DNA of 64,000 bases, taken from positions 477 through 64,476 of the IMG/VR virus record IMGVR_UViG_3300037140_000081; one strand, 5' to 3'. This document shows, piece after piece, positions 29,880 to 64,000 of the stretch (the first letter of the stretch is position 1; the number at the start of each line of letters is the position of its first letter). The notes beneath the pieces were generated by a model. It was not told the origin of the DNA. It saw nothing but the letters and a program-made list of their open reading frames with translations, and ran no database searches. Source of the stretch: a virus. Its lineage: Duplodnaviria > Caudoviricetes. A program made the translations under genes and the position numbers.

Positions 29880-29956
29880 GCTGCCTTCGTCTAGCGGCCT
29901 AGGACATTCACCCCCTCAGGTGGAAAACGTTGGTTCAAATCCAGCCGGCAGCGCCA
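29880..29956 (+). tRNA. tRNA-Glu-like gene with 8-nt anticodon loop (CCCCTCAG)
   Basis: GCTGCCT-TC-GTCT..GGAC-A-TTCAC[CCCCTCAG]GTGGA-AAAC-GTTGG-TTCAAAT-CCAGC-CGGCAGC-G-CCA; Glu-type D arm, 4-nt variable loop; T7:C66 mismatch. Confidence 0.85.
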
Positions 29957-29978: not shown

Positions 29979-30055
29979 GCTCCCTTCGTCTAGCGGCCCA
30001 GGACGCCAGCCCCCTCAGGCAGGAAACGGTGGTTCAAATCCATCAGGGAGCGCCA
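29979..30055 (+). tRNA. tRNA-Glu-like gene with 8-nt anticodon loop (CCCCTCAG)
   Basis: GCTCCCT-TC-GTCT..GGAC-G-CCAGC[CCCCTCAG]GCAGG-AAAC-GGTGG-TTCAAAT-CCATC-AGGGAGC-G-CCA; one A:A mismatch in the anticodon stem. Confidence 0.85.
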
Positions 30056-45873: not shown

Positions 45874-48800
45874 CTAGAAAACGCCATTTATCGCACGTTC
45901 TATGGGGCCGCGACCCCCTGTTTTCTGGCGGGTCATGGATTGCTTGTTATTGTGCTGCTCGGAATGCGCGAGATATCGAGAGGCTTTATCGCTCGGATTT
46001 TTGATATCCAGCGCTTGGTCGCGGATAGCCCCGGCAGCGCCAATACCCTTTGCCTGGGCGTTGGCATATGTATTGTATGGGCTGACTAAGCTCCGTGCCG
46101 TGTAATCGGTTACCTGCGCCGCCGCCCGGGCAGCCGCGGGTAGATCGCCCTTGGCACCAGCAGATATATCTCCTGGTTCCGCGATGGCTTTACCGGTCCA
46201 GTCTCGGAAGCCTAGACCGCCTTGAATGCCGGCCAATAATGGCGACACGGTGAGAGTGTCTCGCAGTGCCTGCATTGGATCAGTTCGACCTTCTCGCGCT
46301 TCGTTCAAAGTATACGGGATCGTGAGCGGGCCGCGGGCGTGGATTTCAGCATCCGGATTACCGGTGATCATACGAGCCGCTTTGTCGAACAGCGGCTTGA
46401 CCACGAACCCCAACACACCCAAGGCCATGACGTTGCCTAACGTGGCTGTACGTTCCGCACTGGTCCCGCCGTATAGGTCCTTAGCCATGTGCGCGAACGC
46501 GTTGATCATGCCATAGTGGTACGGTCCGAAGGCCACAACCGAGGGCTCGCGTATCACTTGCGAGAACGCACGGCCAAACCCCTTATCAGTACCGATGTTG
46601 GTCGGTGTGCGGTAGTTGGGGATCAGCTTCTCGGCTTGCGTGATCGCTTGTCGCGAAGTCCACTCCGGGTTCTTGAGTTTCAACTCCATGACATGCTGCG
46701 TCAGGATCATATCGTTGACCGCCCACATTACCCGGCTGGAGCCTTTGTAGATCATGTCGGACAACTTCTTCAACGGTACGCCGAGAGTATCCGCGACCGG
46801 GCCCCACTTGGACGGGTTACGCTCAATATGAACAGACAGTTTCTGTGCCAACTGCTCCATCGGCTTCGCCGTCAACAGACCAGGAGTAATGAGGCCAGCG
46901 TTGTTCATGTACAAATCGGTTTGGGTGTGATCCTGCTGTATGACGGATTTTATAGCGTCCATCGAAGTAGACACCAGCCGGGGATATGCAGCCGGATTGA
47001 CCCAGTCCCAGCCACGCGCGACGAACCCGTGGGCGGCCACGTTTGCGATATGGGCAGTTGGCATCCAGAACAGCAGCTTGGTCACACCCTGGCTGAACCC
47101 GCGGAAGCCGTTGTTGAACCAGTCAATGCCAGGGCCGGCGTAATCGTCCATCATGTGGGCGATCTGCGGGTCCATATAGTAGTCGTCCTTGAACGACGCC
47201 ATCTTGGTACGAATATAGCCACGCTCCTGGGCGGTAGCAGCGGCCCCATCAGCCTTGGCAGGTATCGCGTGCGACAGGAAGTCCGGGTTCTGCTTGAAGC
47301 TGTCCACCAGCGACAAGTGATTGCCCAGTTTCATCATCTGCTCCAGGCCGGAGTAGGCGCTCAACAGCGCGTTCTTTGCATACTTGACGCCGGCCGCCTT
47401 TTCGATTTCCTCGGTTAACGCCCCGGTCATTTTCTTGTCGCCGTGCATTTGGCCTTCTTTATACTCATAGTTCGGGTCAATAACCGGGGTCCCCTTGCCG
47501 TTCTTCCACTCGGTATAGCCGCTGCCCTTGTCAGGAGAGATTACCGTGCGCGTGCCGTCAGCGTTCTCGTGTGCAAAATACTTGCGTTCCTTGGCGCTGT
47601 CCGGTTTGGCCCCGCGCAAATCTCGGCCCATAATTGGATCATTGCTGGCCCCACGATTAGTTGTCTTATCCCCGGTCAAGGTGTCTTCGGTGATGCGATA
47701 CATATGGTTCATCACTTCGTCGGCAGTAGCATTAGGCCAGCGTTCTTTGATGTTCTTGAAGATGGTGTCAGCGGCGTGCTTGATCGGCCCAACGTACTGG
47801 TCATAGATACCCTTGTCGCGGGCGTTCAAATCTCCCAGTTTGTTAGCTTCAATGGCCTTGTAGATGCGCCCCTGGGCTTCCGTATCCTGCCGGATGGCCT
47901 CTGGGATTTGGACAACGTCCTTCTGTAACAGCAGCGAGTTGTGTACGTCCTGGTGATGCGCGAGTTCAGCTTGGCTCTGTAACAGCCGGCCCACGTCTTC
48001 ACCCGAAGACGAAGGTGGTCGAGCAAACGAGTTCAACCCCTTAGACAGGTCGCCTACTTTATACCCTTTCTCGCCAGTGAGCGGCTTTTTCACTTCCGCT
48101 ATGGCTTCTTTGACGGTATCGGTAGGCCGCTTCATAGCTAAAGTCTGCCGTTCGCCTGGAACCTTGGCGGCTTCTGCGTTCTCTTTTATCTTCTTGTCAA
48201 TGCCGGCGATCAGCTTCTCTGTCTTACCTTCCAAATCCGATTTCGGCATCTGGTCACGCTTCATGAGGGCGTCCTTTGTCAACGCCTGCATGGTGCCCGG
48301 GTCTTTCTCCGGGTGCATAACCTTTTCGGCAGCGCTCATGGCCTTCCACTCGCGCGCTGCTCTCTGTCTGGCCATATTTGCTTTACGGGCTGCGTCGGCG
48401 TCTGCGACTACCTGCTTGGCTGATTTCTCGCCAGCCGACTTCTCCGCTTCTGGGGCGAGATATTTTGCGGTAGTTTTATCCAGGGCTTTACCGGATAGGT
48501 CCCCTTTGAAGGCATTGGCGACAGCCACTTCACGGTCTTCCCGTTCCTCTCGTATCCGTCGGTCATAGAGGCTTTCTTCATCGTCATGTGGTTCCGCTCG
48601 TGCTTCGGCTTGGGCCTCGGATACCTGAGCCTTGGCTTGCTGGGCCTCGGCACCGGCGACAGCTTCCTCGCCCTTGCGCGGGTTCAACTTGGCGTCGGCC
48701 TCGGCCTTGTTATTGGCCTTAAAGGTTTCATACTGCCCATCGGTACCCCGATGCAACAGTTCATTTGTACGGAACGCGTCTGGTTTGGTGTGGGCCTTGC

Positions 48801-51069
48801 CACCGGCCAGCTTCTGGGCTTCGCGCAACAGCGACCATTCCTTCGGCTTATCCATGCCGTTCATGGAATAGGTCTTGAGTGGGCTCTCCCCGCCATTGAG
48901 GCGGGCAGCCTCAGTCACTATTGCTTTGGCGCGATTGCGGGTTTCTCCGTCGGTTTCGCCGGCCTTGGGATGAAACCGTGCATCGTTGAATACGGTTTGA
49001 GTGGCTTCAATTGCCTTAGTAAACTTTGCAGCCTTCTCTGGTGTTTGCGTCTTAATAGGTTTACCGTCTGCATTTTTCAACCCATCAACATTTAGCTCTG
49101 GCCGATCATTTCGGACACGGGGGTTCTTCAAGTCTACAGCCGGGTTCTTCACTCCGCCACTTTGATTGTGCAGACCTGCATTCATCTTTGCCGCTGCCTG
49201 GTTACGAGCCGGACCCGGGGGCATGGCTTCCAACTTGTTAGCTGTTTCAGCATACTTGCCACCGGCCGCGCGCAGTCGTGCAATAGTGTCAGTGTACACC
49301 TTGGGAGTAGCTAGTGTGTCATAATGCCTCTGGGCAATGTCCGCAACCTCGCGCTGGAGTTGGTTGTTGGGGTCTGCGCGTGACTTCTCGATACCGGCTT
49401 TCAGGTTCTCCATCGTGCCGTGTGACGCCTTGAACGGGCTCGTGTCCGGCAGCGGAGTACCACCCTTCATATCTAGCTTGGGTAATGCATTTACAGCCTG
49501 CTCCGGTGTCGGGCGTGCCCGCGGGCGCGCTACGGGGGTAGGCTGTGCAGCGGGTTGTTCCTGAACGGGAGCAGCGTTGCGTTTTCCCACCTCAAACGAG
49601 GTACCCTGATCCTGTACGGGAGCAGCACGTGGGACCTTTAACTTTGCTGGTTCACCAACAGCAGCGGCTGCGAAGTCAGTTTCACCCCCGGCTTGCTTTC
49701 GCTCATATGCTGCTTGATCAGCGTCAAAGCTGGTAGGCTTAGCACCAGGCGGTATGCTAGCTTCATCTTGCGTGGCTAGCTTGGCCGGCTCGAACGCATC
49801 GGCTGGCAACTCACCGCGGCTGCCTTGCCCCACATTCTGCATACCCTCATGGGTGGCATCCAGAACAGATTTAGCGTGTTCACCTTGGAGGTCGGGCAGC
49901 GTGTCGGAAATGGGCGCTTGACGAGGCTGGTCCACGTTAGGCTGTTCGGGCGGCGCGACGTAGTCAGGGTTGAGCACCGAAGCAGTGGCCGGGTCAATCA
50001 TTCCAGTGGTGAAACCGGTTTTACCTGACTTGGGTGGTGCCGGATTTTCATTCTCAGTGGAACTGATTACGTTCTCGTCGGGCTTGAACGAGCGACGCGC
50101 TCCCGCTAGTTTTGCAGCAACGTCCCACTCATTAACCGGTTGACCCACAGTGCCAGCCTTAGGTATCGGCACAGGACCGTTATCCGCGGCGCCGCCGGCT
50201 GCAACAGTTGTAACATCATTGGCATCTGCCGCGGCCCTATCATCGGCGGCGCCAGGTGCGGCATCGCCTGGGTGCCCCGGTCGGAATACCTTGCCTAGAT
50301 CGGCTCCAGCTTTTTCACTGGCAGCGAGATACGGTTTGGCAAAACCACGCGCTTGGGTGAATGCCATACCAGCGCCGACGTTTAAACCCGCTTCTAATGG
50401 GTCTACATTTTCAGGACCCTTTTCATAAGCTTGCTGTCCTACGTTGATGCCGCCCATGATGCCGCCTTGCAACAGGCGGGCGGCCAACTTTTCGGTCAGG
50501 TTTACACCAAAGGCGACTGGTAATGGGGCAAGCCCGGCGACCATATCTGTGGTTGGGTTGGCTTCGGCGTTTACCTGCAACTGGGCGGTATCATCTATAC
50601 CTAAGGCTTTCATCGCGCGTTGCTGGAAGCTGTCTAGGACATACCCGGCACCCATCGCGCCTGCGATACCACCGGCGACGGTACCTATTGGGCCACCTAT
50701 AGCCGAGCCCAATGCAGCGCCTGCCAGTACACCACCAACTGTCGGGATAACACTATGGGCCGCTCTACGCGCAAAGGTCCCGGCTACACCCTCAGCTTCG
50801 GGCGCTTCTGTGCCTGGTTCCCCGACTGGCTTTACTTCATGTCCCTGCGCCTGGAGTTGCTCCAGCGTCTGTCCTACTGGATTGAAATTATCGGCCGACT
50901 GTACGTCATGCCCCTGCGCCTGGAGTTGCTCCAGCGTCTGTCCTACTGGATTAAAGTTGTCTGCTGGCGGAGTTTGCGGTGCTGGCTGGACGTCATGACC
51001 CTGCTGCTGGAGTTGATCCAGCGTCATACCAGTAGGGTCGAAGTCTTGCCCCTGCGTCGTGTCCGTCAC
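45874..51069 (-). CDS. Large internal virion / DNA-ejection protein
   Basis: 1731 aa, Ala/Lys-rich helical; last of three large genes after the nozzle. Confidence 0.75.
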   Translation of the reverse strand: MTDTTQGQDFDPTGMTLDQLQQQGHDVQPAPQTPPADNFNPVGQTLEQLQAQGHDVQSADNFNPVGQTLEQLQAQGHEVKPVGEPGTEAPEAEGVAGTFARRAAHSVIPTVGGVLAGAALGSAIGGPIGTVAGGIAGAMGAGYVLDSFQQRAMKALGIDDTAQLQVNAEANPTTDMVAGLAPLPVAFGVNLTEKLAARLLQGGIMGGINVGQQAYEKGPENVDPLEAGLNVGAGMAFTQARGFAKPYLAASEKAGADLGKVFRPGHPGDAAPGAADDRAAADANDVTTVAAGGAADNGPVPIPKAGTVGQPVNEWDVAAKLAGARRSFKPDENVISSTENENPAPPKSGKTGFTTGMIDPATASVLNPDYVAPPEQPNVDQPRQAPISDTLPDLQGEHAKSVLDATHEGMQNVGQGSRGELPADAFEPAKLATQDEASIPPGAKPTSFDADQAAYERKQAGGETDFAAAAVGEPAKLKVPRAAPVQDQGTSFEVGKRNAAPVQEQPAAQPTPVARPRARPTPEQAVNALPKLDMKGGTPLPDTSPFKASHGTMENLKAGIEKSRADPNNQLQREVADIAQRHYDTLATPKVYTDTIARLRAAGGKYAETANKLEAMPPGPARNQAAAKMNAGLHNQSGGVKNPAVDLKNPRVRNDRPELNVDGLKNADGKPIKTQTPEKAAKFTKAIEATQTVFNDARFHPKAGETDGETRNRAKAIVTEAARLNGGESPLKTYSMNGMDKPKEWSLLREAQKLAGGKAHTKPDAFRTNELLHRGTDGQYETFKANNKAEADAKLNPRKGEEAVAGAEAQQAKAQVSEAQAEARAEPHDDEESLYDRRIREEREDREVAVANAFKGDLSGKALDKTTAKYLAPEAEKSAGEKSAKQVVADADAARKANMARQRAAREWKAMSAAEKVMHPEKDPGTMQALTKDALMKRDQMPKSDLEGKTEKLIAGIDKKIKENAEAAKVPGERQTLAMKRPTDTVKEAIAEVKKPLTGEKGYKVGDLSKGLNSFARPPSSSGEDVGRLLQSQAELAHHQDVHNSLLLQKDVVQIPEAIRQDTEAQGRIYKAIEANKLGDLNARDKGIYDQYVGPIKHAADTIFKNIKERWPNATADEVMNHMYRITEDTLTGDKTTNRGASNDPIMGRDLRGAKPDSAKERKYFAHENADGTRTVISPDKGSGYTEWKNGKGTPVIDPNYEYKEGQMHGDKKMTGALTEEIEKAAGVKYAKNALLSAYSGLEQMMKLGNHLSLVDSFKQNPDFLSHAIPAKADGAAATAQERGYIRTKMASFKDDYYMDPQIAHMMDDYAGPGIDWFNNGFRGFSQGVTKLLFWMPTAHIANVAAHGFVARGWDWVNPAAYPRLVSTSMDAIKSVIQQDHTQTDLYMNNAGLITPGLLTAKPMEQLAQKLSVHIERNPSKWGPVADTLGVPLKKLSDMIYKGSSRVMWAVNDMILTQHVMELKLKNPEWTSRQAITQAEKLIPNYRTPTNIGTDKGFGRAFSQVIREPSVVAFGPYHYGMINAFAHMAKDLYGGTSAERTATLGNVMALGVLGFVVKPLFDKAARMITGNPDAEIHARGPLTIPYTLNEAREGRTDPMQALRDTLTVSPLLAGIQGGLGFRDWTGKAIAEPGDISAGAKGDLPAAARAAAQVTDYTARSLVSPYNTYANAQAKGIGAAGAIRDQALDIKNPSDKASRYLAHSEQHNNKQSMTRQKTGGRGPIERAINGVF
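50843..50952. repeat. 41-bp direct repeat, period 69 nt
   Basis: CCCTGCGCCTGGAGTTGCTCCAGCGTCTGTCCTACTGGATT twice, encoding part of DNFNPVGQTLEQLQAQGH. Confidence 0.85.
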
Positions 51070-51081
51070 GGTGCCACCTTG

Positions 51082-53463
51082 TTACTGAGCGGGACCAACC
51101 ACTTTATTATCCGGGCCCACCAAGAACGGTTTATTGTTGATGATCACGGTACGGTTCTGCTGCGGCGCGGCTACCTGCGGCCCCGGCGCTGCTACACCAC
51201 GGTTAACCTGCCCGGTATTAACCGGCTGCTGGGCGCCAGGAACCGGCAATCCGAGCCTCTTAGCTAATGCCGCTGACTTAACGTCGTCTCTGGCGATAGA
51301 CGGATCGGCATTAACGAAAGCATTGAATTGCTTGTACTGACCGGCCAGCTGGGTGTCTGTCCCCGCTTGAGCGGCACGTATACCCGCTTCTTGTATCCTG
51401 CCGGCTACGCGCAGTTGTGTATTTGTTCCAACCGCAGCATCATGGCGGTCTCCGTACCCACCAACTCCGTAATGTCTGTCTGCAACCTCTAATTTACCTT
51501 TTTGGACCGAAGCCGCTTGGTTTTCCTTGCTCTCCTGTTCAGTACTGACTGCCTTTTGGGCATTCAGGAATGCAGCACGCCCGCGTACATCGGCGTTAGC
51601 CCCGGCTGGAAACTGCTCATAAGCCATTGCAACATTCTCTGGCCCATATAGTTTTTCCATTTCAGAGTAGCGTCTATCAGCCGCCGCATTACGCGGGTTA
51701 AACCCTTCCAATTGAGACCCTTCAACGGACCCGGGGAACTTTGCTTGCGTCTGCCCCGGCCGCCCTTGACCAGGCTGCGGTGCAGCAACTGGGCTGGTTC
51801 CGCGCGGCGGCATCATAACCTGGCCATCCGTTGCATCGGGCGTGCTTGTTTCGGTACCAGCATTAGGTCCGGGTTCTCCACCCGCTGCTGGTTGATCACC
51901 GCCCAATGATTTATTGATCGCAGCGCCCGCGGCGCCGAAGCCACCCGGAACACGCAGAGGCGGAGTAGGCCCTTCATTGCCTGTACGCACGGCGCCCGGT
52001 CCGCCCGCTGCTGTTGGATCAAATCCGCTCATATCAGGAACGGGGGTTTGGTCTCTGCCGCCTTGTGCTGGTTGACCAGCCGGCAGTTGCCCGTCTCCGA
52101 TACCTGGCAGACCGCCGGCACCGGCGGGAGACTTCGCTATTTTCTGGAGTGTGACCGCCGTGCTCTCGTCCATTTTCTGGTCATAAATGGTCTTCAAGAA
52201 ATTACCAAATTGCTGGAGGCCCATTTTAACGTGCTGAAACGGCTGGTCGTTACCGAGTTTCGTGGTGGTAGCGGTGACACCTTTACCCCCGACAGTCGGG
52301 GAAAAGTGGGTCTGCGTTCCATCGAGCACATTAGCATCGGCTTCTGTGGCGGCTTGCGCGGCGGCGCCCACGTTACCTTGCTGGAGTTTTACCTTGGCCA
52401 GTGTGGTCTGTAGCTCGTGCTGCTGGCGATAAGACTGCATGATCGGCCACGCGGCTTCGGGGCCACCGTGCTTGTACGCATCATTGATAACGGCCAATGC
52501 CCTCATTGCGGGCTGTTCTTCCCCCGTGGCATCTTCCGCTGCTTTCACTGCTTTAGCGGATGCAGCGCCTGCCCCCTGTAAATAGCCAACAATTTTTTGT
52601 GGCGCCATACCGGCACCGGTATCACCTTGTGCGCTTTGCATAGCGCCGCCCGGCGCCTGCTGCTGCCCTTGCTGCGGCATGCCATGCGGATCATAGCTGT
52701 CCGGGGCATCTGTCGGGATTGCCTGTTGCTCGGGTACCAGGCTGCTATCGGCCGGGTCTTCTACGTCACCACCATCGGCATAGCTAGGCTGTGTCTGTAG
52801 TCCCATAGGCGAATACTGGGGAGACGTTTGCGGCGAACCAGGAGCGGCACCTGGCTGTGGTACATCTTCTGCATCAGCACCCTGCTCGCCAAAGTGAAAA
52901 TCGGAATTTAAATCCGGTCCACCTTCGCCAGCGCTACCGTCTTCCTGGCCTTTGAACTTGTTACCTTTATGTCCAGGTCCGCGCCCATGTATCGTGCCGC
53001 CCCTTGCATATCCAGTTTGGTCAGGTCCGCTGTTTGGGATTGCAGACGGAGGTGCGCCCAACCCGCTCTGACTACGTCCAAATTGTAGTACGTGGTCAAC
53101 GGTGGCCATTGCTTCATTGATATCAGTACCCTGCCTAGGGCTGTTTGGGATCGCGCTGTCTCCGGTATCATTTTGATTTGAATGCGGCACAAAACGATAT
53201 GGTTTGTCGTTTCCGTGGTCGTCCTTTTCACTTGACCCCGCGGGCAACGTATTATTGACTTGATCGTTGTCACCGCTCGTATCCCGAGTATCCGGAATAG
53301 CTCCGCCTTGGGAAAAATGCATGCCGGCGCCAACACCGGTAGGGCTCATAAAATTAAATGCTTGGCTGTTTGCACGCAGCGGCGCTGCTTGCGGCCGGCC
53401 GAAAGACGACGCTGGATTAGCAAAACTTCCAATCATTGTACCGGCTAAATTATTGAGTGCCAT
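51082..53463 (-). CDS. Internal virion / ejection protein
   Basis: 793 aa, Gly/Pro/Gln-rich, with (Y/F)xxGG motifs. Confidence 0.7.
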   Translation of the reverse strand: MALNNLAGTMIGSFANPASSFGRPQAAPLRANSQAFNFMSPTGVGAGMHFSQGGAIPDTRDTSGDNDQVNNTLPAGSSEKDDHGNDKPYRFVPHSNQNDTGDSAIPNSPRQGTDINEAMATVDHVLQFGRSQSGLGAPPSAIPNSGPDQTGYARGGTIHGRGPGHKGNKFKGQEDGSAGEGGPDLNSDFHFGEQGADAEDVPQPGAAPGSPQTSPQYSPMGLQTQPSYADGGDVEDPADSSLVPEQQAIPTDAPDSYDPHGMPQQGQQQAPGGAMQSAQGDTGAGMAPQKIVGYLQGAGAASAKAVKAAEDATGEEQPAMRALAVINDAYKHGGPEAAWPIMQSYRQQHELQTTLAKVKLQQGNVGAAAQAATEADANVLDGTQTHFSPTVGGKGVTATTTKLGNDQPFQHVKMGLQQFGNFLKTIYDQKMDESTAVTLQKIAKSPAGAGGLPGIGDGQLPAGQPAQGGRDQTPVPDMSGFDPTAAGGPGAVRTGNEGPTPPLRVPGGFGAAGAAINKSLGGDQPAAGGEPGPNAGTETSTPDATDGQVMMPPRGTSPVAAPQPGQGRPGQTQAKFPGSVEGSQLEGFNPRNAAADRRYSEMEKLYGPENVAMAYEQFPAGANADVRGRAAFLNAQKAVSTEQESKENQAASVQKGKLEVADRHYGVGGYGDRHDAAVGTNTQLRVAGRIQEAGIRAAQAGTDTQLAGQYKQFNAFVNADPSIARDDVKSAALAKRLGLPVPGAQQPVNTGQVNRGVAAPGPQVAAPQQNRTVIINNKPFLVGPDNKVVGPAQ

Positions 53464-55516: not shown

Positions 55517-55660
55517 TTAATTGGAGCGACCGGGCCCTGTTTTTGTTAGAATTCGGAAAGCCTGGGCCAGGGCATTAATTGCGGCAATACAAGACGCTAG
55601 GTCCGTAGCCGTCGGAATAGCCGGGTATACCGGTGTTGGAGTGAACTGCGGTGTAGCCAT
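55517..55660 (-). CDS. Small hypothetical protein
   Basis: Hand translation MATPQFTPTPVYPAIPTATDLASCIAAINALAQAF...; GGAGG SD; TAATG overlap. Confidence 0.6.
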   Translation of the reverse strand: MATPQFTPTPVYPAIPTATDLASCIAAINALAQAFRILTKTGPGRSN

Positions 55661-58416
55661 TAGACCTCCCTCAATTCTTTAACTGTGGGCGCCATTTGGA
55701 TATTAGAAATATCCACCCTGGCAGTTACCCGGACCTGCCAGAACTCGCATTTCTGGCCTGAGTTGATCCGCAACAGCTCGCCGGACGACCGCAGCTCTCG
55801 GGTCGTCACCACGTTGCCGTCCCCGTATACCTGGATAATACCATACTGCCCGGGGTCTAGGGTACTCCAACTTCCATCGTCCGCGGCTGCCTCGTTACGC
55901 TTGGCATTCTGTGCGGGCGTCCCAGGTGGGATGCTAAAGAAGACCCGCATGGCTGCCAGGTTGTCCTTGAATTTCTGCTGATATAGCTTGCTGGTCCAGA
56001 TATATGACTGTATAGTAGGCGCGAAATCGGTAAAGTCATAGTAGTTAATGTTACCCTGTTGGATTAGCATAGTAATACCGGTCCAAGGATCGTTTATTAC
56101 ATTGGCTATATCTTGACTATTCGGCGCCGTCAGCTGACTAAACCCGATGCGATGGCCGCCGGGCTGGGGCCAAATAGTGAATGACGAGCTATCTGCCGCG
56201 TTCAATTCAATCGTGAACCCGTTCTGGGCCTGTGATGCATCACCGTCGGCGCCGATAGTCCCGAAGGCAAAATAGCACGACGACTGCATGACGGCATGCA
56301 AGTTTTTCTGCGGGGTCAACTGGGCCCATTTATCCCGCGTGATCCACATTTCAGTGGTGTTCACCATTGGGCCAGTAGTCACAATTTTGATCAGGCCCTT
56401 CGTGCTGGAATAATACATGCCTTCACTGGTGGCTAGGATGGACCCACGCGACGTACACGGGGCGCTCTCCGGGAACTTGAGTAAGGTCATGCTACCTGGG
56501 TTGACACCGGAGGCAGTGTAAGGGGTGCCGTTCGTCGCGGCTACTACGGACGTACCAATTATCCCGAGACCTACAATAGGGAATTCCGTGGTGATGACAT
56601 ACCCCGGCGGCCATGCATGCGGCCGATACGGTTCAGAGAACCATATCTCGTTGTCACGAAACCCGACGGACATGCCATTTGGCATAGCGACAATACCGTT
56701 GACACCTTGCTCCGGTGGGAACCAGGTTGTGCTGGGCAGTTGAAAATTTTGTGCGATGATCGCACCGGACCAGGTGTCGGCAACCTGTAATGTTCCTGTA
56801 GACACCAGAGTGCCATCCGTCGCTTGGGTGTCTATAACCGTCGTGACTGTATTTGACACAATATCAATGTCACCCACCCAGAAAAATACTGTTGATCCAG
56901 TGAGAGCGGACACCGTTCGGTAAATCCTGAGGGCCGTTATATTTCGTACTACCCCCATGTCATCCGGCACGGGGGGCGTCATCTTAACCGTCCAAGTACC
57001 GTTGGACCAGCCGGTAGTGAGCGTCGGCGGGCTAGGCGGGCTCTCCTCCCCATACGCAGACAACCAGGTGTACACATAGGCTCGCACGTCTAAGATTGAA
57101 GACGTAGTACAGTTCGCCCACATTTGGAAATCGGGAGTAGTGGTTGAACCCGAAAAAATCCCTGGAGGACCATTGGTCCAGGTATTAGATTGCTGCAACC
57201 CGCCCGCATTATTCGCGTCATCGGCTAACTTAAAGCCTACCGAGGTATCGGCCATAAAACCGATCCAGTATTTCGTGGCATTCAACAGCCCTGGCGGCTG
57301 GGAGAACTGACTTATGATCGGCACGCCGGTCACGCAGCCAGTAATAATGTCACCAAATGAGATCAAAGTGCCCGGAGCCCCTAGATTATCTGAGTAGAGC
57401 ACGGCAGCACATTTGCCAGTCGTGGTGGGTGAGGCGGGCATAATCTCTATACTATCCAAAGACATAGCCCCGGTAGTGGTAATTGGTGCAACCCATATTG
57501 TATTGGCGCCGGGCACATTATTATTGATCGACGTGGACGTAGGCAAACCTAGCAATGTCTGGTTGCCGCCCCCCGCAACGGAGACAGCCGGAGCAACACC
57601 AGGGGGGTATAGCCCCAGAGCCCAAGCGGGCAAGCCCGCGGCAATGCGGTCATAGGTGTTGTACTGCGGTGCCAATGAAGGGCTAGAGAAATAATAGCGG
57701 TTGAATTTGTCATCGACCACCGGTGACCGCATTACCTCGGTTTCCTGGTCCAGGAACTCCAACCAGGTAGCTGGTCCGGTGATCGTGTTGTCAAATGACT
57801 TATTCACGCCTCCAACATACGAAGGGTGTACCCAACTCATACGAGCACCGCCAGTGCTCTCGGTTGTCGTAGTACCATTGTATGCGGCACCAGGATCATC
57901 GGCTACCACGTTAATACCGCCAGGGAAACCTCCGCCGCCGCTCCTAATCGCGAAAGAGTTCTTCGTGATGGGTGTGGTCCGGTCAACCGCCATGTTGGCA
58001 TATGTACCAGTGCCATAAAGAGTACCAGCGCCGGCGGACAAAGTGATTGCAGCAAATAAATTTATCGCGCAAGCGTTTCCATCAACACCAATTAATACAT
58101 CAAATGGGTTCACCAAGGCGGCAACGAACTTGTAGGTCACCTCCCCGATTTTTACCGTGTCACCAGCCAGTGGGAGAACATTTATATATAGTGAGTTGCC
58201 CGCGGTGCCGCTGGTTATAGTTGGTACGCGATAAGCAAATTTCGCCGCGGAATTTACCAGAGCCCGCAGCAGTTTAGGCACGCGCCAGCCAGTACAGCTA
58301 CCTGAGAACAGGTAGCCGTTGGTAGACTGGGCAGCTTGGCCTTCGGGTAATAGCGTAGTGTCCCAAGCGGGCAACTACAACATGCCGCCGAATTGTTGAA
58401 TTTTGATCGGGGCCAT
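55660..58416 (-). CDS. Tail nozzle / stabilisation protein with in-frame TAG at codon 14
   Basis: AAGGAAGG SD plus ATG 58416, MAPIKIQQFGGML*LPAW..., then 904 open codons with 'YVYTW...GEESPPS', 'IYRT', 'FSEPYRPHAWP'. Confidence 0.8.
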
Positions 58417-58419
58417 GTG

Positions 58420-58791
58420 CTACACCTTCCTTTCTAGGTAGTCTGCCAACGCTCGGAGGCGCTGTGGATCATCTGCTACTTGACCGAGTGCCATATTGCA
58501 CCCATTACAGAGTATCCCGCGAACTATCCCTGTTTTATGATCATGGTCAGTTGACCAATGACCGGTTTTCCGACCGGGAAAAATTGACTTACATATAGCA
58601 CAAGCCCGGCCCTGTGCGTCAAACATGGCATCCCACTCGTCAGGAGTGAGATTATAGTGGCGCCTAAGATCATAAGTACGATACTGGTGTCTCATCTTCC
58701 CTGGGTTTGCAGCTCGCCACTTCAACGTGTACGCCTGGTGCTTGGCCTTCCCTTTGGGCGTATTTAGGTATTTCCTTTGTGCAGGGCGCAT
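58420..58791 (-). CDS. Endonuclease VII-family homing endonuclease
   Basis: 'HYNLT...QGRACAIC...TDHDHKTGIVRGILCNGCNMALG'. Confidence 0.9.
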   Translation of the reverse strand: MRPAQRKYLNTPKGKAKHQAYTLKWRAANPGKMRHQYRTYDLRRHYNLTPDEWDAMFDAQGRACAICKSIFPGRKTGHWSTDHDHKTGIVRGILCNGCNMALGQVADDPQRLRALADYLERKV

Positions 58792-58794
58792 CGG

Positions 58795-59169
58795 TTACAA
58801 CGTTCTAGGTTTCAGGACAGCATCGGTACCTTGTTTCATGTTGGGGACATAATCTTTCGGGCGATAGACCGGTGTGCTCGTACCCTGTGAGGGGTCGCGC
58901 TTGGGCACAGGGCGGTTCTTTTGGGCCTCGGTGGCGAGTGCAACGCGCTTGGCGCCTTCGGCCATTTCGAGTTGCGTTTGGGTTGCAATGGCCTGGGGTA
59001 CGGGAGGGGGGACATACACCGGCTCTACCTTGTTTCGGTTGGCCAGCACCTCGGCAACGAAATCATCGCGCCGGATCGTGGCCGCGTCGCGGGTAGCGAT
59101 CTCGGGCTCAGGACTTGCCTGCGTTGGCTGATCCGCTGGCAGATGCAGTGTCGGTCGGTCCGTTGGCAT
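58795..59169 (-). CDS. Hypothetical protein
   Basis: AGGAG SD, 124 aa. Confidence 0.65.
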   Translation of the reverse strand: MPTDRPTLHLPADQPTQASPEPEIATRDAATIRRDDFVAEVLANRNKVEPVYVPPPVPQAIATQTQLEMAEGAKRVALATEAQKNRPVPKRDPSQGTSTPVYRPKDYVPNMKQGTDAVLKPRTL

Positions 59170-59952: not shown

Positions 59953-60330
59953 TCAGTTCTCCGAGTTACGGTCCAGATACTCAATAGCCAACCTAAGAAT
60001 GGTCTGGTTGTCTTTAAAGCGGCCTAAACCGTTGTTACAGCCATTACACAAAACACCCCGTACCTTCCCTGTTTGGTGATCATGATCTATCACCCAGCCA
60101 TGCTTAAAGTCAGGATCAGGACGTTTACAAACCCCGCAGCAGAACCCTTGCCTAGCAAATATAGCATCTCGTGCTTCCGGGGTTAGCCTATACTTCCGTA
60201 AGAGAACAGACGCAGCCCAGCGCACGTGATTTTTCTTATACCAAGCACGAGCATACGCTTTTCGTTCGGGCAGGTGTAGCGCCCGGTCCTGTTTTCCCCA
60301 CTTTCGTTTTTGAGCTAACGTTTGTGCCAT
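59953..60330 (-). CDS. Endonuclease VII-family homing endonuclease
   Basis: 'KYRLT...QGFCCGVC...IDHDHQTGKVRGVLCNGCNNGLG'. Confidence 0.9.
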   Translation of the reverse strand: MAQTLAQKRKWGKQDRALHLPERKAYARAWYKKNHVRWAASVLLRKYRLTPEARDAIFARQGFCCGVCKRPDPDFKHGWVIDHDHQTGKVRGVLCNGCNNGLGRFKDNQTILRLAIEYLDRNSEN

Positions 60331-60331
60331 T

Positions 60332-60712
60332 TTAATTCCGGGGGTCGTCGTAGGGGTCATGTGTCTTAGACGGCGATGTTGCCTTATCGACCTTTTTGTG
60401 GACAGTGGTAGTGACAACCACCTGTCTAGCTTCGCACTCTATCTTGGCATCACGGGCGCCAATATACTCTCCGCCCAGAACCAACGCAACTGCAAACGCG
60501 GCCCACAGCAAGTCCTTACGCAGCGGCTTGAAGAAGTCAGCCAAGATGGGGCCCACCAGAGGAATTCCGGCGAGCAACTGACTGCCAAAGGCAAGACCGA
60601 GCAAGATCGCGATGGCAACCCAGCCGAGGCCCTTATGCACAAGACTGTCCCATGCACCCGCAAACGCGAGTTCAACGCCCATAACAAGCTTGTCAAACAA
60701 CCATCCGAACAT
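60332..60712 (-). CDS. i-spanin (Rz-like) membrane protein
   Basis: TM segments then a short soluble tail with Cys; directly after the endolysin. Confidence 0.55.
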   Translation of the reverse strand: MFGWLFDKLVMGVELAFAGAWDSLVHKGLGWVAIAILLGLAFGSQLLAGIPLVGPILADFFKPLRKDLLWAAFAVALVLGGEYIGARDAKIECEARQVVVTTTVHKKVDKATSPSKTHDPYDDPRN

Positions 60713-62478: not shown

Positions 62479-62958
62479 CTATGTCCAAGTTATTACCATT
62501 TTACCATTTGTACCTGCATAGGCACCAATGTTGCCAGCGATGCCGCCGCTGCCAGTGTTCCAAGACACTAATTGCCCTACTCCGAATGCTCCAGGAGAAT
62601 ATGTTTTTAGACAGAACCCACCAAACCCACCTGGACCACCGCCGCTAATGCCCGCACCCCCTGCGGAGCCGCCGTAACTGTGGTTTATATCGCCACCAAC
62701 AGCGGTACCGTTGGCGCCTATACTGCCATAACTGCCGCCGTGACCACCGTAAGCGTGCAAAGTTGCAAAACCAGAAGCCGACCCAGTGCCGCCTACATAT
62801 CCGGACGTACCACCGCCGCCGCCGGCGCCGTATAGTTTAACTACCAATGAATTAAACGCTGGTATAGGAAAATTTCCGGAACCAGCATACGGTTTTGAAT
62901 ACGACCCAGCAATAGCCGTTGGGTCCATTAGCATTGCGCCTGAGGTTGCTCGTGCCAT
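62479..62958 (-). CDS. Glycine-rich fibre-associated protein
   Basis: 'FNSLVVKLYGAGGGG...MVITW'; paralog of 240-977; TAATG overlap. Confidence 0.7.
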   Translation of the reverse strand: MARATSGAMLMDPTAIAGSYSKPYAGSGNFPIPAFNSLVVKLYGAGGGGGTSGYVGGTGSASGFATLHAYGGHGGSYGSIGANGTAVGGDINHSYGGSAGGAGISGGGPGGFGGFCLKTYSPGAFGVGQLVSWNTGSGGIAGNIGAYAGTNGKMVITWT

Positions 62959-64000
62959 TATGTTAACTTCGTTCCAGAGATTATCCATTCAGTTGAAGTC
63001 ACTTTGAGCGCAGTTGCAACACCGTCAGCACCGAGCGACCGGTTGCCGGTAGTGCCCGCGCCGGCCAAGCGCATCGTATCCGTGGTGATGGCTATCGTGA
63101 TCACACCCGCAGAGTGTTGATTGACGAACGTGAGAACGGTACCAATCGGATAGGCGACGTTAGCATTGCTGTTAATTGTCCAGGTGCGCGCGGTCGTATC
63201 CGCGCTCGGATGGAAGACATGACCCCCCGCGTCTGCAAGAACTAGGGTATATGCTGCGCTCTGCGAGTTCTGTGGTAACGAAGCAGCACCGGTGGCCCCG
63301 GTGATGCCGGTTGGGCCAGTCCCGCCCACCGTCCCGTTAAATCCGGTCATACCGGTTGGACCTGTACTACCCGCGGAACCCGCAGCACCCGTGGCTCCTG
63401 TATTCGTCGCAGTTCCAGGAGAACCGGTGTTGCCGGTTGGCCCAGTGACAGTGCTCGCCGCACCAGTGGCTCCTGTAAAACCAGTTGGACCAGTAACAGT
63501 GCTAGCAGCACCTACCGCACCGCCTGCACCGGTGTTGCCAGTTGGCCCAGTGACAGTGCTTGCCGCACCGGTGTTGCCGGTTGGCCCAGTGACAGTGCTC
63601 GCCGCACCAACGTTGCCAGTCGGACCAGTGACAGTGCTCGCCGCACCCCCCGCACCAACGTTGCCAGTCGGGCCCGTGGCTCCTGTATTCGTCGCAGAAC
63701 CAGGTGAACCAGTGATACCGGTTGGTCCAGTAATGCCTGTCGCGCCGGTTGGCCCGGTGTTACCAGTAGCACCGCCGCCGGGGCCCGTTGCGCCTAGCGT
63801 TCCACTTGGACCAGTTGCACCTGTTACGCTGGGACCAGTGTTACCGGTAGGCCCAGTCACGGTGCTCGCTGCACCTGTGATGCCAGTCGGTCCTGTGATG
63901 CCAGTCGGTCCTGTGATGCCAGTCGGTCCTGTAGCGCCGGTGTTTGTTGCTCCACCAGCAGCACCAGTTATGCCCGTCGGCCCCTGTGGGCCCATACTAC
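62958..64000 (-). CDS. Collagen-like (GXT) tail fibre, probably 5'-truncated by the window edge
   Basis: GPT/GAT/GNT repeats, tandem '[12 protein letters not shown]' units, C-terminal domain paralogous to 977-1978. Confidence 0.8.

What the first reader, a model, noticed from the sequence alone, without database searches (positions are those of the whole stretch)
58372..58791. Candidate minimal ribosomal stop-hop cassette: UUG-UAG-UUG in the tail nozzle gene next to a homing endonuclease
Seen: the gene has a strong SD and ATG at 58416 and reads ATG GCC CCG ATC AAA ATT CAA CAA TTC GGC GGC ATG TTG TAG TTG CCC GCT TGG. A stop (58377-58375) sits between two identical Leu codons and is followed by 904 open codons. 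The second TTG has no SD. GGCGGC can pair with GTTGCC around the UUG-UAG. The site is about 40 nt downstream of an Endo VII-type gene (58420-58791). Established: matched codons flanking a stop allow peptidyl-tRNA hopping, at low efficiency in reporter constructs. In T4, the gene 60 bypass insertion and the adjacent MobA endonuclease form a mobile cassette in which the insertion blocks cleavage. Inference: a 6-nt insertion destroys the endonuclease target and is skipped in translation to give ...FGGMLPAW..., which would also limit output of a low-copy tail protein.
Basis: partly seen in the sequence, partly recalled or inferred. Interest (0 to 1): 0.85.

Follow-up and report, generated by a model that had tools for sequence, protein, structure and literature searches.

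The report
Stop-hop site beside homing endonuclease
A soil phage carries a stop codon flanked by two identical leucine codons inside the most conserved motif of an essential virion gene, right after a homing-endonuclease gene, and a dozen relatives carry other tiny frame-breaking insertions at the same spot, which suggests that ribosomes skip these insertions.

Summary
On the minus strand an SD and ATG (58416) open 13 codons (MAPIKIQQFGGML). TAG follows at 58377-58375, then TTG and 903 further open codons. Logan contigs of four peat runs cover the site without indels.

The prediction about relatives holds. The closest relative, L001 (94% aa), reads FGGMLPAW without the 6 nt. None of 120 homologues has extra residues in this motif.

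Among 148 related loci, 13 distinct sequences carry exactly one lesion each, all within codons 8-20:
- Codon-TAG-codon insertions: TTG/TTG, CTT/CTT, CTT/CTA and CCG/CCA, plus one unmatched case.
- One 8-nt insertion.
- Four 1-nt insertions at a TTT Phe codon.
- Two hairpin inserts of 44 and 51 nt.

Their gene bodies (751-1146 codons) are otherwise intact.

An Endo VII ORF lies upstream in 11 of the 12 broken clusters whose upstream sequence is known. Of the 101 intact clusters, 11 have one (Fisher p = 1.3e-8).

Best reading (about 0.6): this is a natural +6 stop-hop by peptidyl-tRNA-Leu. It is one of several recoding "scars" that disrupt a homing-endonuclease target, a minimal analogue of T4 gene 60/mobA.

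Nothing has been shown at protein level. Rivals are reinitiation at the TTG, readthrough, and a complemented defective allele.

The parts
58420..58791 (-). Free-standing Endonuclease VII-family (HNH-type) gene, 123 aa; candidate homing endonuclease.
   Evidence: PF02945 E 3.3e-24. PHROG endonuclease VII. It is inserted between two syntenic genes: the upstream-gene homologue ends 9-110 nt before the virion gene in 33 of 35 Endo- clusters, against 381-568 nt in 8 of 10 Endo+ clusters.
58423..58430 (-). Shine-Dalgarno-like GGAAGGTG, 7-14 nt before the ATG of the leader.
   Evidence: Read from the sequence.
58378..58416 (-). Leader of 13 codons, MAPIKIQQFGGML. This is the conserved N-terminus of the virion protein family. 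Its last codon, TTG (58380-58378), is the proposed take-off codon.
   Evidence: The same peptide is encoded with synonymous changes in L001. The xK[LI]xQFGGM motif is present in 112 of 120 homologues.
58375..58377 (-). In-frame TAG stop. It would occupy the A site at the proposed take-off.
   Evidence: Present in contigs of 4 runs and in relative L097.
58372..58374 (-). Second TTG: proposed landing codon, or alternatively a reinitiation codon. Together with the TAG it forms the 6 nt that relatives lack.
   Evidence: Alignment with L001 shows a 6-column gap here.
55660..58371 (-). Body of the virion structural protein gene: 903 codons plus TAA, uninterrupted. It is the only copy in the genome.
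   Evidence: PHROG 511. PDB 8jov_A, E 1.5e-39.
58350..58383 (-). Predicted hairpin that holds the take-off codon and the TAG in its 5' arm (UGUAGU paired with ACUACG). It is not statistically supported.
   Evidence: strand folding MFE -28 kcal/mol, z -1.47, 18 of 200 shuffles fold as well.
58307..58447 (-). Patch of about 140 nt that is 98-99% identical to relative L097, while the flanks are 56-88% identical. It covers the 3' end of the Endo VII gene, the SD, the leader, the TAG-TTG and the first ~70 nt after it.
   Evidence: Sliding identity and alignment A3.

Best explanation
The window is a circularly assembled ~64.5-kb podovirus-like phage genome from peat. Its single-copy, conserved virion structural gene carries a 6-nt insertion (TAG plus TTG) inside the near-invariant N-terminal motif FGGMLPAW. 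The insertion lies directly downstream of a free-standing Endo VII-family homing-endonuclease-like gene.

Proposed mechanism (inferred, not shown):
1. Ribosomes start at the ATG at 58416 and translate 13 codons.
2. They stall with peptidyl-tRNA-Leu on UUG in the P site and UAG in the A site.
3. The tRNA unpairs and re-pairs 6 nt downstream on the identical UUG.
4. Decoding resumes at CCC. Nine nucleotides therefore specify one Leu, and the product reads ...FGGMLPAW... as in all relatives.

At DNA level the insertion interrupts a ~36-nt stretch (codons 8-20) that is probably the recognition or cleavage site of the neighbouring endonuclease, so the carrier is protected from its own or related enzymes. 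In relatives the same stretch carries other small insertions. These would be rescued by the same kind of P-site re-pairing: a +6 hop over UAG with matched codons, a +1 shift on UUU, and possibly longer bypasses over hairpin inserts.

The system works like the T4 gene 60 coding gap with mobA, in minimal form.
For: 1. Real DNA. Contigs of 4 of 4 laid runs cover the site without indels. A relative 85% identical in protein (L097) has the same TTG TAG TTG.

2. The leader is coding. L001 encodes APIKIQQFGGMLPAW with 5 synonymous changes in the leader codons and lacks the 6 nt. Of 120 homologues, 113 have the motif contiguous, 7 are truncated gene calls and none has inserted residues.

3. Matched codons recur with different sequences: TTG TAG TTG (window, L097), CTT TAG CTT (L054), CTT TAG CTA (L121) and CCG TAG CCA five codons downstream (L060). 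L054, L121 and L060 have no ATG, GTG or TTG after the stop, so reinitiation cannot serve them.

4. Non-triplet lesions occur at the same spot, and readthrough cannot rescue them. There are four distinct 1-nt insertions at a TTT Phe codon (L021, L028=L113, L106, L104), an 8-nt insertion (L127) and a 44-nt hairpin insert (L065). L108 carries a 51-nt hairpin insert that is a multiple of three but contains an in-frame TAG. In the +1 cases the leader keeps its start codon and the conserved xxKLxQF peptide.

5. Each broken locus has exactly one lesion. All 12 complete ones keep a body of 751-1146 uninterrupted codons. No other interruption was seen in 90,375 downstream codons of 118 clusters.

6. 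Link to the endonuclease. Of 22 Endo+ clusters 11 are broken, against 1 of 91 Endo- clusters, with 5 left out for lack of upstream sequence (Fisher p 1.3e-8). The Endo VII ORF is a sporadic insertion between two syntenic genes.

7. TAG is an ordinary stop in this genome: 14 of 81 crude ORFs end in it, including the Endo VII gene. The window has no CUA-anticodon suppressor tRNA. No tRNA at all was found in 5 other broken-leader contigs, 3 of them rated 100% complete.

8. The gene has only one copy.

9. Published background. Synthetic stop-hops with matched codons flanking a stop exist (review PMC5009743, passages read). The gene 60 insert protects against MobA (preprint 10.1101/2022.08.31.505936, section 12 read).
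Against: There is no protein, RNA or ribosome data, and no RNA run holding the stretch was listed.

As I recall, synthetic stop-hops are inefficient. I did not see figures in the passages read.

Some gene 60 stimulators are missing. The nascent peptide is only 13 residues, no SD-like element lies in the gap, and the local RNA folds at the short hop sites are not significant (z -0.4 to -2.1).

Not all lesions fit a clean re-pairing rule:
- L031 reads CAT TAG CTC, which is unmatched, and it has no Endo VII gene upstream.
- L127 would need a +8 landing on UCG after take-off from CCG.
- L065 has lost its ATG (now ACG).

Half of the Endo+ clusters are intact, so the insertion is not needed to carry the gene.

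Matched codons could partly reflect a duplicating mutational mechanism rather than selection for hopping.

The window and L097 share a near-identical ~140-nt patch. Their common insertion may therefore be one recently transferred event, not long-term conservation.

In the window itself the landing codon is also a legal start codon.

The association test is not corrected for phylogeny.
Confidence: 0.6

Rival explanations
1. Termination-reinitiation. Ribosomes terminate at UAG after the 13-codon leader and restart at the adjacent UUG (58374). This gives a protein that lacks the first 13 residues. The leader then acts only as a coupling ORF.
For: UUG is a legal bacterial start codon and lies directly after the stop. 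Gene callers make this call for relatives (P0035, P0105 and P0117 start MPAW). Reinitiation by sliding 70S ribosomes is a known process (abstract of PMC11194080 in the listing).
Against: There is no SD before the UUG. The missing residues include the near-invariant K[LI]xQFGGM, present in 112 of 120 homologues. L054, L121 and L060 have the same stop arrangement without any ATG, GTG or TTG after the stop. The +1 loci have no start codon in the body frame for more than 40 codons (L106, read).
Confidence: 0.15
2. Stop-codon readthrough or suppression. UAG is decoded by a near-cognate or suppressor tRNA of the host, giving FGGML-X-LPAW with two extra residues.
For: All five distinct 6-nt insertions and the 8-nt insertion use TAG. 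Five of these six have C after the TAG, which I recall is a weak termination context in E. coli. The host is unknown.
Against: No family member tolerates extra residues in the motif (0 of 120). The 1-nt, 8-nt and 44-nt insertions at the same spot cannot be rescued by readthrough. TAG ends 14 of 81 crude ORFs here. The window has no suppressor tRNA, and no tRNA at all was found in 5 other broken-leader contigs. Readthrough does not explain why the flanking codons match.
Confidence: 0.08
3. Defective allele. The gene is dead in this genotype, which persists as a parasite of co-infecting relatives that supply the protein. It may be driven by the linked endonuclease.
For: In run X5 contig ends match the L001-type allele of the Endo VII region, so two variants co-occur (loose ends compared). 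Homing endonucleases can carry linked markers along. The preprint raises parasitism for mobA.
Against: The insertion-bearing form is the only one seen in the contigs of X1, X4 and X7. It holds 0.99-1.00 of the sampled words in 4 runs from 4 studies. Thirteen distinct sequences each have exactly one lesion and no further decay in 751-1146 codons. The lesions are of kinds that re-pairing can rescue, with matched codons or a slippery UUU.
Confidence: 0.12
4. Sequencing or assembly artefact.
For: The source is a metagenome assembly.
Against: Independent Logan contigs from 4 runs agree, with no indel at the site. L097 comes from another record and has the same 9 nt. The L028/L113 lesion is likewise seen in two different records.
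Confidence: 0.01

Closest known systems
Phage T4 gene 60 coding gap with the mobA homing endonuclease
   Same: An otherwise inactivating insert sits in a highly conserved part of an essential gene, next to a free-standing HNH-type endonuclease gene. The take-off and landing codons match, and a UAG directly follows the take-off codon. The insert is thought to protect the carrier from cleavage (section 12 of preprint 10.1101/2022.08.31.505936; passages of review PMC5009743).
   Different: The gap here is 6 nt, not 50. No long nascent-peptide signal is possible, because only 13 residues have been made. No SD lies in the gap and no significant take-off stem-loop is predicted. The endonuclease is of the Endo VII (PF02945) family, and the target gene encodes a virion protein, not a topoisomerase. 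No sequence homology to the gene 60 cassette was looked for. Relatives show several different lesions rather than one conserved cassette.
Synthetic 'stop-hops' in E. coli (matched codons flanking a stop; 9 nt specify one amino acid)
   Same: The arrangement is exactly this: identical Leu codons on either side of UAG.
   Different: Stop-hops are known only from constructs. The 2016 review states that no natural in-frame stop-hop occurrence is known. Here the arrangement is natural, recurs with covarying codon pairs, and sits in an essential gene.
'byp' bypass elements of Magnusiomyces capitatus mitochondria
   Same: [quoted passage not shown] The 44- and 51-nt hairpin inserts of L065 and L108 resemble them in size.
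   Different: This is a bacterial virus, not a mitochondrion. The lesions cluster at a single site per gene, next to an endonuclease gene, and are mostly far shorter.
Programmed +1 frameshifting (P-site slippage with a slow A-site codon)
   Same: Relatives L021, L028, L106 and L104 need a +1 shift of tRNA-Phe from UUU to UUC or UUU.
   Different: The window itself needs +6, not +1. The shift sites lie 9 codons into the gene and look like repair scars rather than regulatory devices.

Membership tests
Translational bypassing / stop-hop | Take-off and landing codons can pair with the same peptidyl-tRNA. | tested here: met
   TTG and TTG flank the TAG. Relatives have CTT/CTT, CTT/CTA and CCG/CCA. 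L031 is an exception (CAT/CTC).
Translational bypassing / stop-hop | A stop or slow codon occupies the A site at take-off. | tested here: met
   TAG directly follows the first TTG. All 6 short TAG-type insertions in the family have this.
Translational bypassing / stop-hop | One polypeptide is made from both sides of the gap, with a single residue for the 9 nt. | not testable with these tools
   No proteomic or expression data. The only support is the inference that no homologue has extra residues.
T4 gene 60-type cassette | A 50-nt gap with a take-off stem-loop, an internal SD and a nascent-peptide signal. | tested here: not met
   The gap is 6 nt, the leader is 13 codons, no SD lies in the gap, and the fold has z -1.47.
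T4 gene 60-type cassette | The insert is linked to a free-standing homing endonuclease and blocks its cleavage. | tested here: inconclusive
   Linkage is shown (11 of 22 against 1 of 91). Protection from cleavage cannot be tested here.
Free-standing homing endonuclease (Endo VII / HNH type) | A nuclease domain of the family is present. | tested here: met
   PF02945 at 85 bits against a cut-off of 23.6. The conserved C..C, DH.H and C..CN motifs appear in 16 aligned sequences.
Free-standing homing endonuclease (Endo VII / HNH type) | Sporadic presence between conserved syntenic genes. | tested here: met
   22 of 113 informative clusters carry it. The intergenic distance is 9-110 nt without it and 381-568 nt with it.
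Free-standing homing endonuclease (Endo VII / HNH type) | It cleaves the endonuclease-less allele and converts it, with co-conversion of flanks. | not testable with these tools
   Only suggestive evidence: a ~140-nt near-identical patch is shared with L097 across otherwise diverged DNA, and Endo+ intact loci differ slightly more from the Endo- consensus (14.5 against 12.0 of 45 nt, one-sided p 0.018, uncorrected for phylogeny).
Stop-codon reassignment or suppressor-tRNA decoding of TAG | TAG is used in frame in many genes, or a CUA-anticodon tRNA is present. | tested here: not met
   TAG ends 14 of 81 crude ORFs. The two tRNAs in the window have no CUA anticodon. No tRNA was found in 5 other broken-leader contigs.
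Termination-reinitiation (translational coupling) | A start codon lies at or near the stop, usually with an SD. | tested here: inconclusive
   The window has a TTG directly after the TAG but no SD. L054, L121 and L060 have no start codon there.

The most novel reading that the evidence does not exclude
A family of soil podophages uses the ribosome's ability to re-pair peptidyl-tRNA as a general, easily evolved repair for endonuclease-target 'scars'. The events are natural +6 stop-hops with covarying matched codons, a +8 hop, +1 shifts on UUU, and 44- and 51-nt hairpin bypasses. All lie within 13 codons at the start of one essential virion gene and are maintained because they immunise the phage against a neighbouring Endo VII homing endonuclease. 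If so, these would be the first natural stop-hops. Bypassing would then not need the elaborate gene 60 signals when it happens a few codons after initiation.
Probability: 0.5. Interest if true: 0.9.

Novelty: new variant of a known kind. Interest (0 to 1): 0.82.

Why it matters
The 2016 recoding review states that in-frame stop-hopping has been shown only with synthetic constructs and that no natural occurrence is known (passage read). The 2022 preprint on gene 60 calls its bypass cassette still unique (section 12). My three literature searches found no later report of a natural stop-hop.

This locus offers a set of natural variants of one site, which amounts to a ready-made mutational series for testing what a ribosome needs in order to hop. 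The variants are matched Leu pairs of two kinds, a Pro pair, +1 sites, and 44- and 51-nt hairpin gaps.

It also offers a second, independent case of the gene 60/mobA logic, in which an endonuclease target is protected by an insert that translation ignores. That would make this logic a general strategy in the arms race between phages and their selfish endonucleases.

There is also a practical consequence. Gene callers truncate these genes, so such cases are hidden in databases. Seven of 120 homologue entries start inside the motif. One of them, P0111, has the same N-terminal sequence, source and contig length as the +1 locus L104.

Tried and rejected
- **Global TAG recoding:** rejected. TAG ends 14 of 81 crude ORFs.
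- **Phage suppressor tRNA:** rejected. The window has two tRNAs with a non-standard anticodon loop and no CUA anticodon. The same two tRNAs occur in the L001 phage, whose leader is intact. No tRNA was found in 5 other broken-leader contigs. They are therefore unrelated to the TAG.
- **Second intact gene copy:** none found.
- **Fixed-pattern scans of IMG/VR for 6-nt insertions:** the pattern gave 8 hits, all chance matches outside the family. The Leu-stop-Leu pattern found only the L054 contig.
- **Genome-contig scan with the protein:** no relative found, so no prophage copy and no host clue.
- **Scan with an Endo VII alignment:** of the 80 nearest loci, only 6 lie next to this virion gene, and all 6 were already known.
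- **RNA structure at the short hop sites:** not significant. No Rfam family matched the long inserts.
- **RNA evidence:** no RNA holder listed.
- **Literature for PDB 8jov:** nothing relevant found, so the name 'nozzle' is unverified.
- **The look-up of encoding contigs:** closed, so the DNA behind the truncated gene calls P0035, P0102, P0105, P0108 and P0117 could not be examined.
- **Supplements:** supplementary tables of the gene 60 preprint were not seen. They could list related cassettes.
- **Endo+ intact loci:** the excess of differences from the Endo- consensus is weak (p 0.018, no phylogenetic control) and is not relied on.
Full report
**What is there.** The window is almost the whole of a 64,476-bp single-contig virus record with a 127-bp terminal direct repeat, so it was assembled as a circle. 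On the minus strand a GGAAGGTG Shine-Dalgarno sequence precedes an ATG at 58416. Thirteen codons follow (MAPIKIQQFGGML), then TAG at 58377-58375, then TTG at 58374-58372 and 903 further open codons ending in TAA at 55660. Immediately upstream, with its stop 3 nt before the ATG, lies a 123-aa Endonuclease_7 protein gene (PF02945; PHROG 'endonuclease VII'). The long ORF matches PHROG 511 'internal virion protein'. It also matches PDB 8jov_A, a 'virion-associated phage protein' present as six chains. I could not verify the name 'nozzle'. The genome has only one copy of the gene.

**Is the stop real?** One search found peat-metagenome runs that hold the stretch. Four runs from four studies hold 0.99-1.00 of the sampled words, and three more hold 0.57-0.80. 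I laid four of them. Logan's independent contigs of X1, X4, X5 and X7 all cross 58342-58409, and no inserted or deleted letters were reported in any of them. X1 and X4 may be the source sample, but X5 and X7 are not. In X5, loose contig ends match the alternative Endo VII allele of relative L001, so two variants co-occur.

TAG is not reassigned here. It ends 14 of 81 crude ORFs, including the Endo VII gene.

**What relatives show at this codon.** The nearest IMG/VR relative (L001, 94% aa) encodes APIKIQQFGGMLPAW from a TTG start. It has five synonymous changes in the leader and no 6-nt insertion. A protein search with its first 220 residues gave 156 hits, of which 120 were listed. Of those 120:
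- 112 contain the contiguous motif, and 94 have GGMLPAW exactly.
- One has a close variant.
- Seven are gene calls that start inside the motif.
- None has extra residues in the motif.

The leader is therefore part of the protein, and the window's 6 nt sit in the most conserved piece of it.

**A hot spot of lesions.** I fetched 78 related loci from IMG/VR (the best 80 of 211 relatives kept) and 80 from metagenomes (the best 80 of 279). I screened their 5' ends with an HMM of the first 75 residues. Of the 148 loci with an N-terminus, 15 were flagged, which reduce to 13 distinct sequences:

| Type | Loci | Lesion |
|---|---|---|
| A, codon-TAG-codon, 6 nt | window, L097 | TTG TAG TTG |
| A | L054 | CTT TAG CTT at the same codon |
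| A | L121 | CTT TAG CTA |
| A | L060 | CCG TAG CCA, five codons downstream |
| A, unmatched | L031 (=L107) | CAT TAG CTC |
| B, 8 nt | L127 | insertion after CCG, beginning with TAG |
| C, 1 nt after the Phe codon | L021, L028 (=L113), L106 | TTT C GGC |
| C | L104 | TTT T GGC |
| D, hairpin insert | L065 | 44 nt, fold z -5.8 |
| D | L108 | 51 nt, fold z -5.4, contains an in-frame TAG |

In type C the leader ORF keeps its start codon and the xxKLxQF peptide, and the body lies in the +1 frame. For both hairpin inserts, 0 of 200 shuffles fold as well.

All lesions fall within codons 8-20. Every one of the 12 complete broken loci keeps an otherwise uninterrupted body of 751-1146 codons. I found no other interruption in 90,375 downstream codons of 118 dereplicated clusters. 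The L028/L113 lesion appears in two different records.

**Link with the endonuclease.** The loci were dereplicated at 97% identity over 300 nt. Five clusters without upstream sequence were set aside, L121 among them. The result is below (Fisher p 1.3e-8; no phylogenetic correction).

| | Broken leader | Intact leader |
|---|---|---|
| Endo VII ORF upstream | 11 | 11 |
| No Endo VII ORF upstream | 1 | 90 |

The Endo VII ORF is an insertion between two syntenic genes. The homologue of window 58795-59169 ends 9-110 nt before the virion gene in 33 of 35 Endo- clusters, but 381-568 nt before it in 8 of 10 Endo+ clusters. Endo VII relatives are common in other contexts too: only 6 of the 80 nearest IMG/VR hits sit at this gene.

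The window and L097 are 98-99% identical from about -57 to +120 of the ATG, while their flanks are 56-88% identical. This fits either co-conversion with the endonuclease region or constraint on the RNA.

**Mechanism.** The simplest common denominator is re-pairing of the P-site peptidyl-tRNA:
- +6 over UAG onto an identical or synonymous codon (types A).
- +1 from UUU to UUC or UUU (type C).
- Possibly longer slides (types B and D).

For the window, this gives FGGMLPAW with nine nucleotides read as one Leu.

Four observations favour hopping over readthrough:
- The matched codon pairs covary (TTG/TTG against CTT/CTT).
- No member of the family tolerates extra residues in the motif.
- The 1-, 8- and 44-nt lesions at the same spot cannot be rescued by readthrough.
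- No suppressor tRNA was found.

Reinitiation at the TTG remains possible for the window alone. It cannot explain L054, L121, L060 or the +1 loci, and it would remove the conserved FGGM.

A defective allele complemented by co-infecting relatives cannot be excluded. It fits poorly with one rescuable lesion per gene and no further decay.

The steps not shown are the hop itself, its efficiency, the endonuclease's target, and protection by the insertion.

**Exceptions.** Several results do not fit cleanly:
- L031 has unmatched codons and no Endo VII gene.
- L127 needs an imperfect landing.
- L065 has ACG in place of its ATG.
- Folds at the short sites are not significant (z -0.4 to -2.1).
- Half of the Endo+ clusters are intact.

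**Comparison with what is known.** The logic is that of T4 gene 60 and mobA. There the insert, not the nearby polymorphisms, blocks MobA, and the cassette is described as still unique (section 12 of the Manning and Atkins preprint).

The arrangement itself is that of the synthetic 'stop-hop'. The Atkins et al. 2016 review says of in-frame stop hopping that no natural occurrences are known (passage read). Searches for later reports found none.

The window's site fails the gene 60-specific features: the 50-nt gap, the nascent-peptide signal and the internal SD. It is therefore not a member of that cassette family but a minimal functional analogue.

**Verdict.** It is a new variant of a known kind. 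Interest is high, because the family supplies a natural allelic series for bypassing and a second endonuclease-linked case.

Noticed in passing
window 29880-29956 and 29979-30055 (+): There are two tandem tRNA genes (Rfam tRNA, 33.7 and 40.7 bits) whose anticodon region is non-standard. Infernal aligns an 8-nt loop, while ARAGORN reports a 2-base anticodon. The loop sequence is the same in both copies. It is also conserved in both tRNAs of the L001 phage, where one anticodon stem differs. From recall, the body looks tRNA-Glu-like. The function is unknown: possibly quadruplet or odd decoding, or escape from an anticodon nuclease. The tRNAs are not correlated with the broken leader.
   Followed up: partly
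window 59953-60417 (-): A second Endo VII-family ORF (154 aa; PHROG endonuclease VII, E 1e-28) lies about 1.2 kb upstream of the first, so the genome carries at least two such genes.
   Followed up: no
L065 about 2471-2514; L108 about 1527-1577: Two hairpin inserts of 44 and 51 nt sit between codons 8/9 and 12/13 of the same gene (fold z -5.8 and -5.4). In L065 the flanking coding sequences also pair with each other. In L108 one hairpin arm repeats the neighbouring FGG-coding sequence as found in the window, which suggests an inverted duplication made during break repair. No Rfam match was found.
   Followed up: partly
L021, L028/L113, L106, L104 (5' end of the virion gene): Four distinct 1-nt insertions lie directly after a TTT Phe codon, nine codons into the gene. 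They require a +1 shift. The next zero-frame codon is CGG in three of them and TGG in one.
   Followed up: partly
proteins P0035, P0102, P0105, P0108, P0111, P0117: These database gene calls start inside the conserved motif (MLPxW or MPxW). P0111 has the same N-terminal sequence, source and contig length as the +1 locus L104. The others may hide further lesions, but their DNA could not be fetched.
   Followed up: partly
window 58637 and 58829 (run X5): Loose contig ends in one peat run switch to the L001-type sequence at the borders of the Endo VII gene. Two Endo VII alleles therefore co-occur in one sample.
   Followed up: no
genome ends (G000 1-127 and 64350-64476); window 62958-63995: The 127-bp terminal repeat of the contig lies in a gene with collagen-like or tail-fibre PHROG matches and contains an 18-nt unit repeated three times. 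The assembly's circular junction therefore falls in a repetitive gene.
   Followed up: no
window 45874-51069 and 51082-53463 (-): Two very large ORFs (1731 and 793 aa) downstream of the virion gene have no PHROG match.
   Followed up: no
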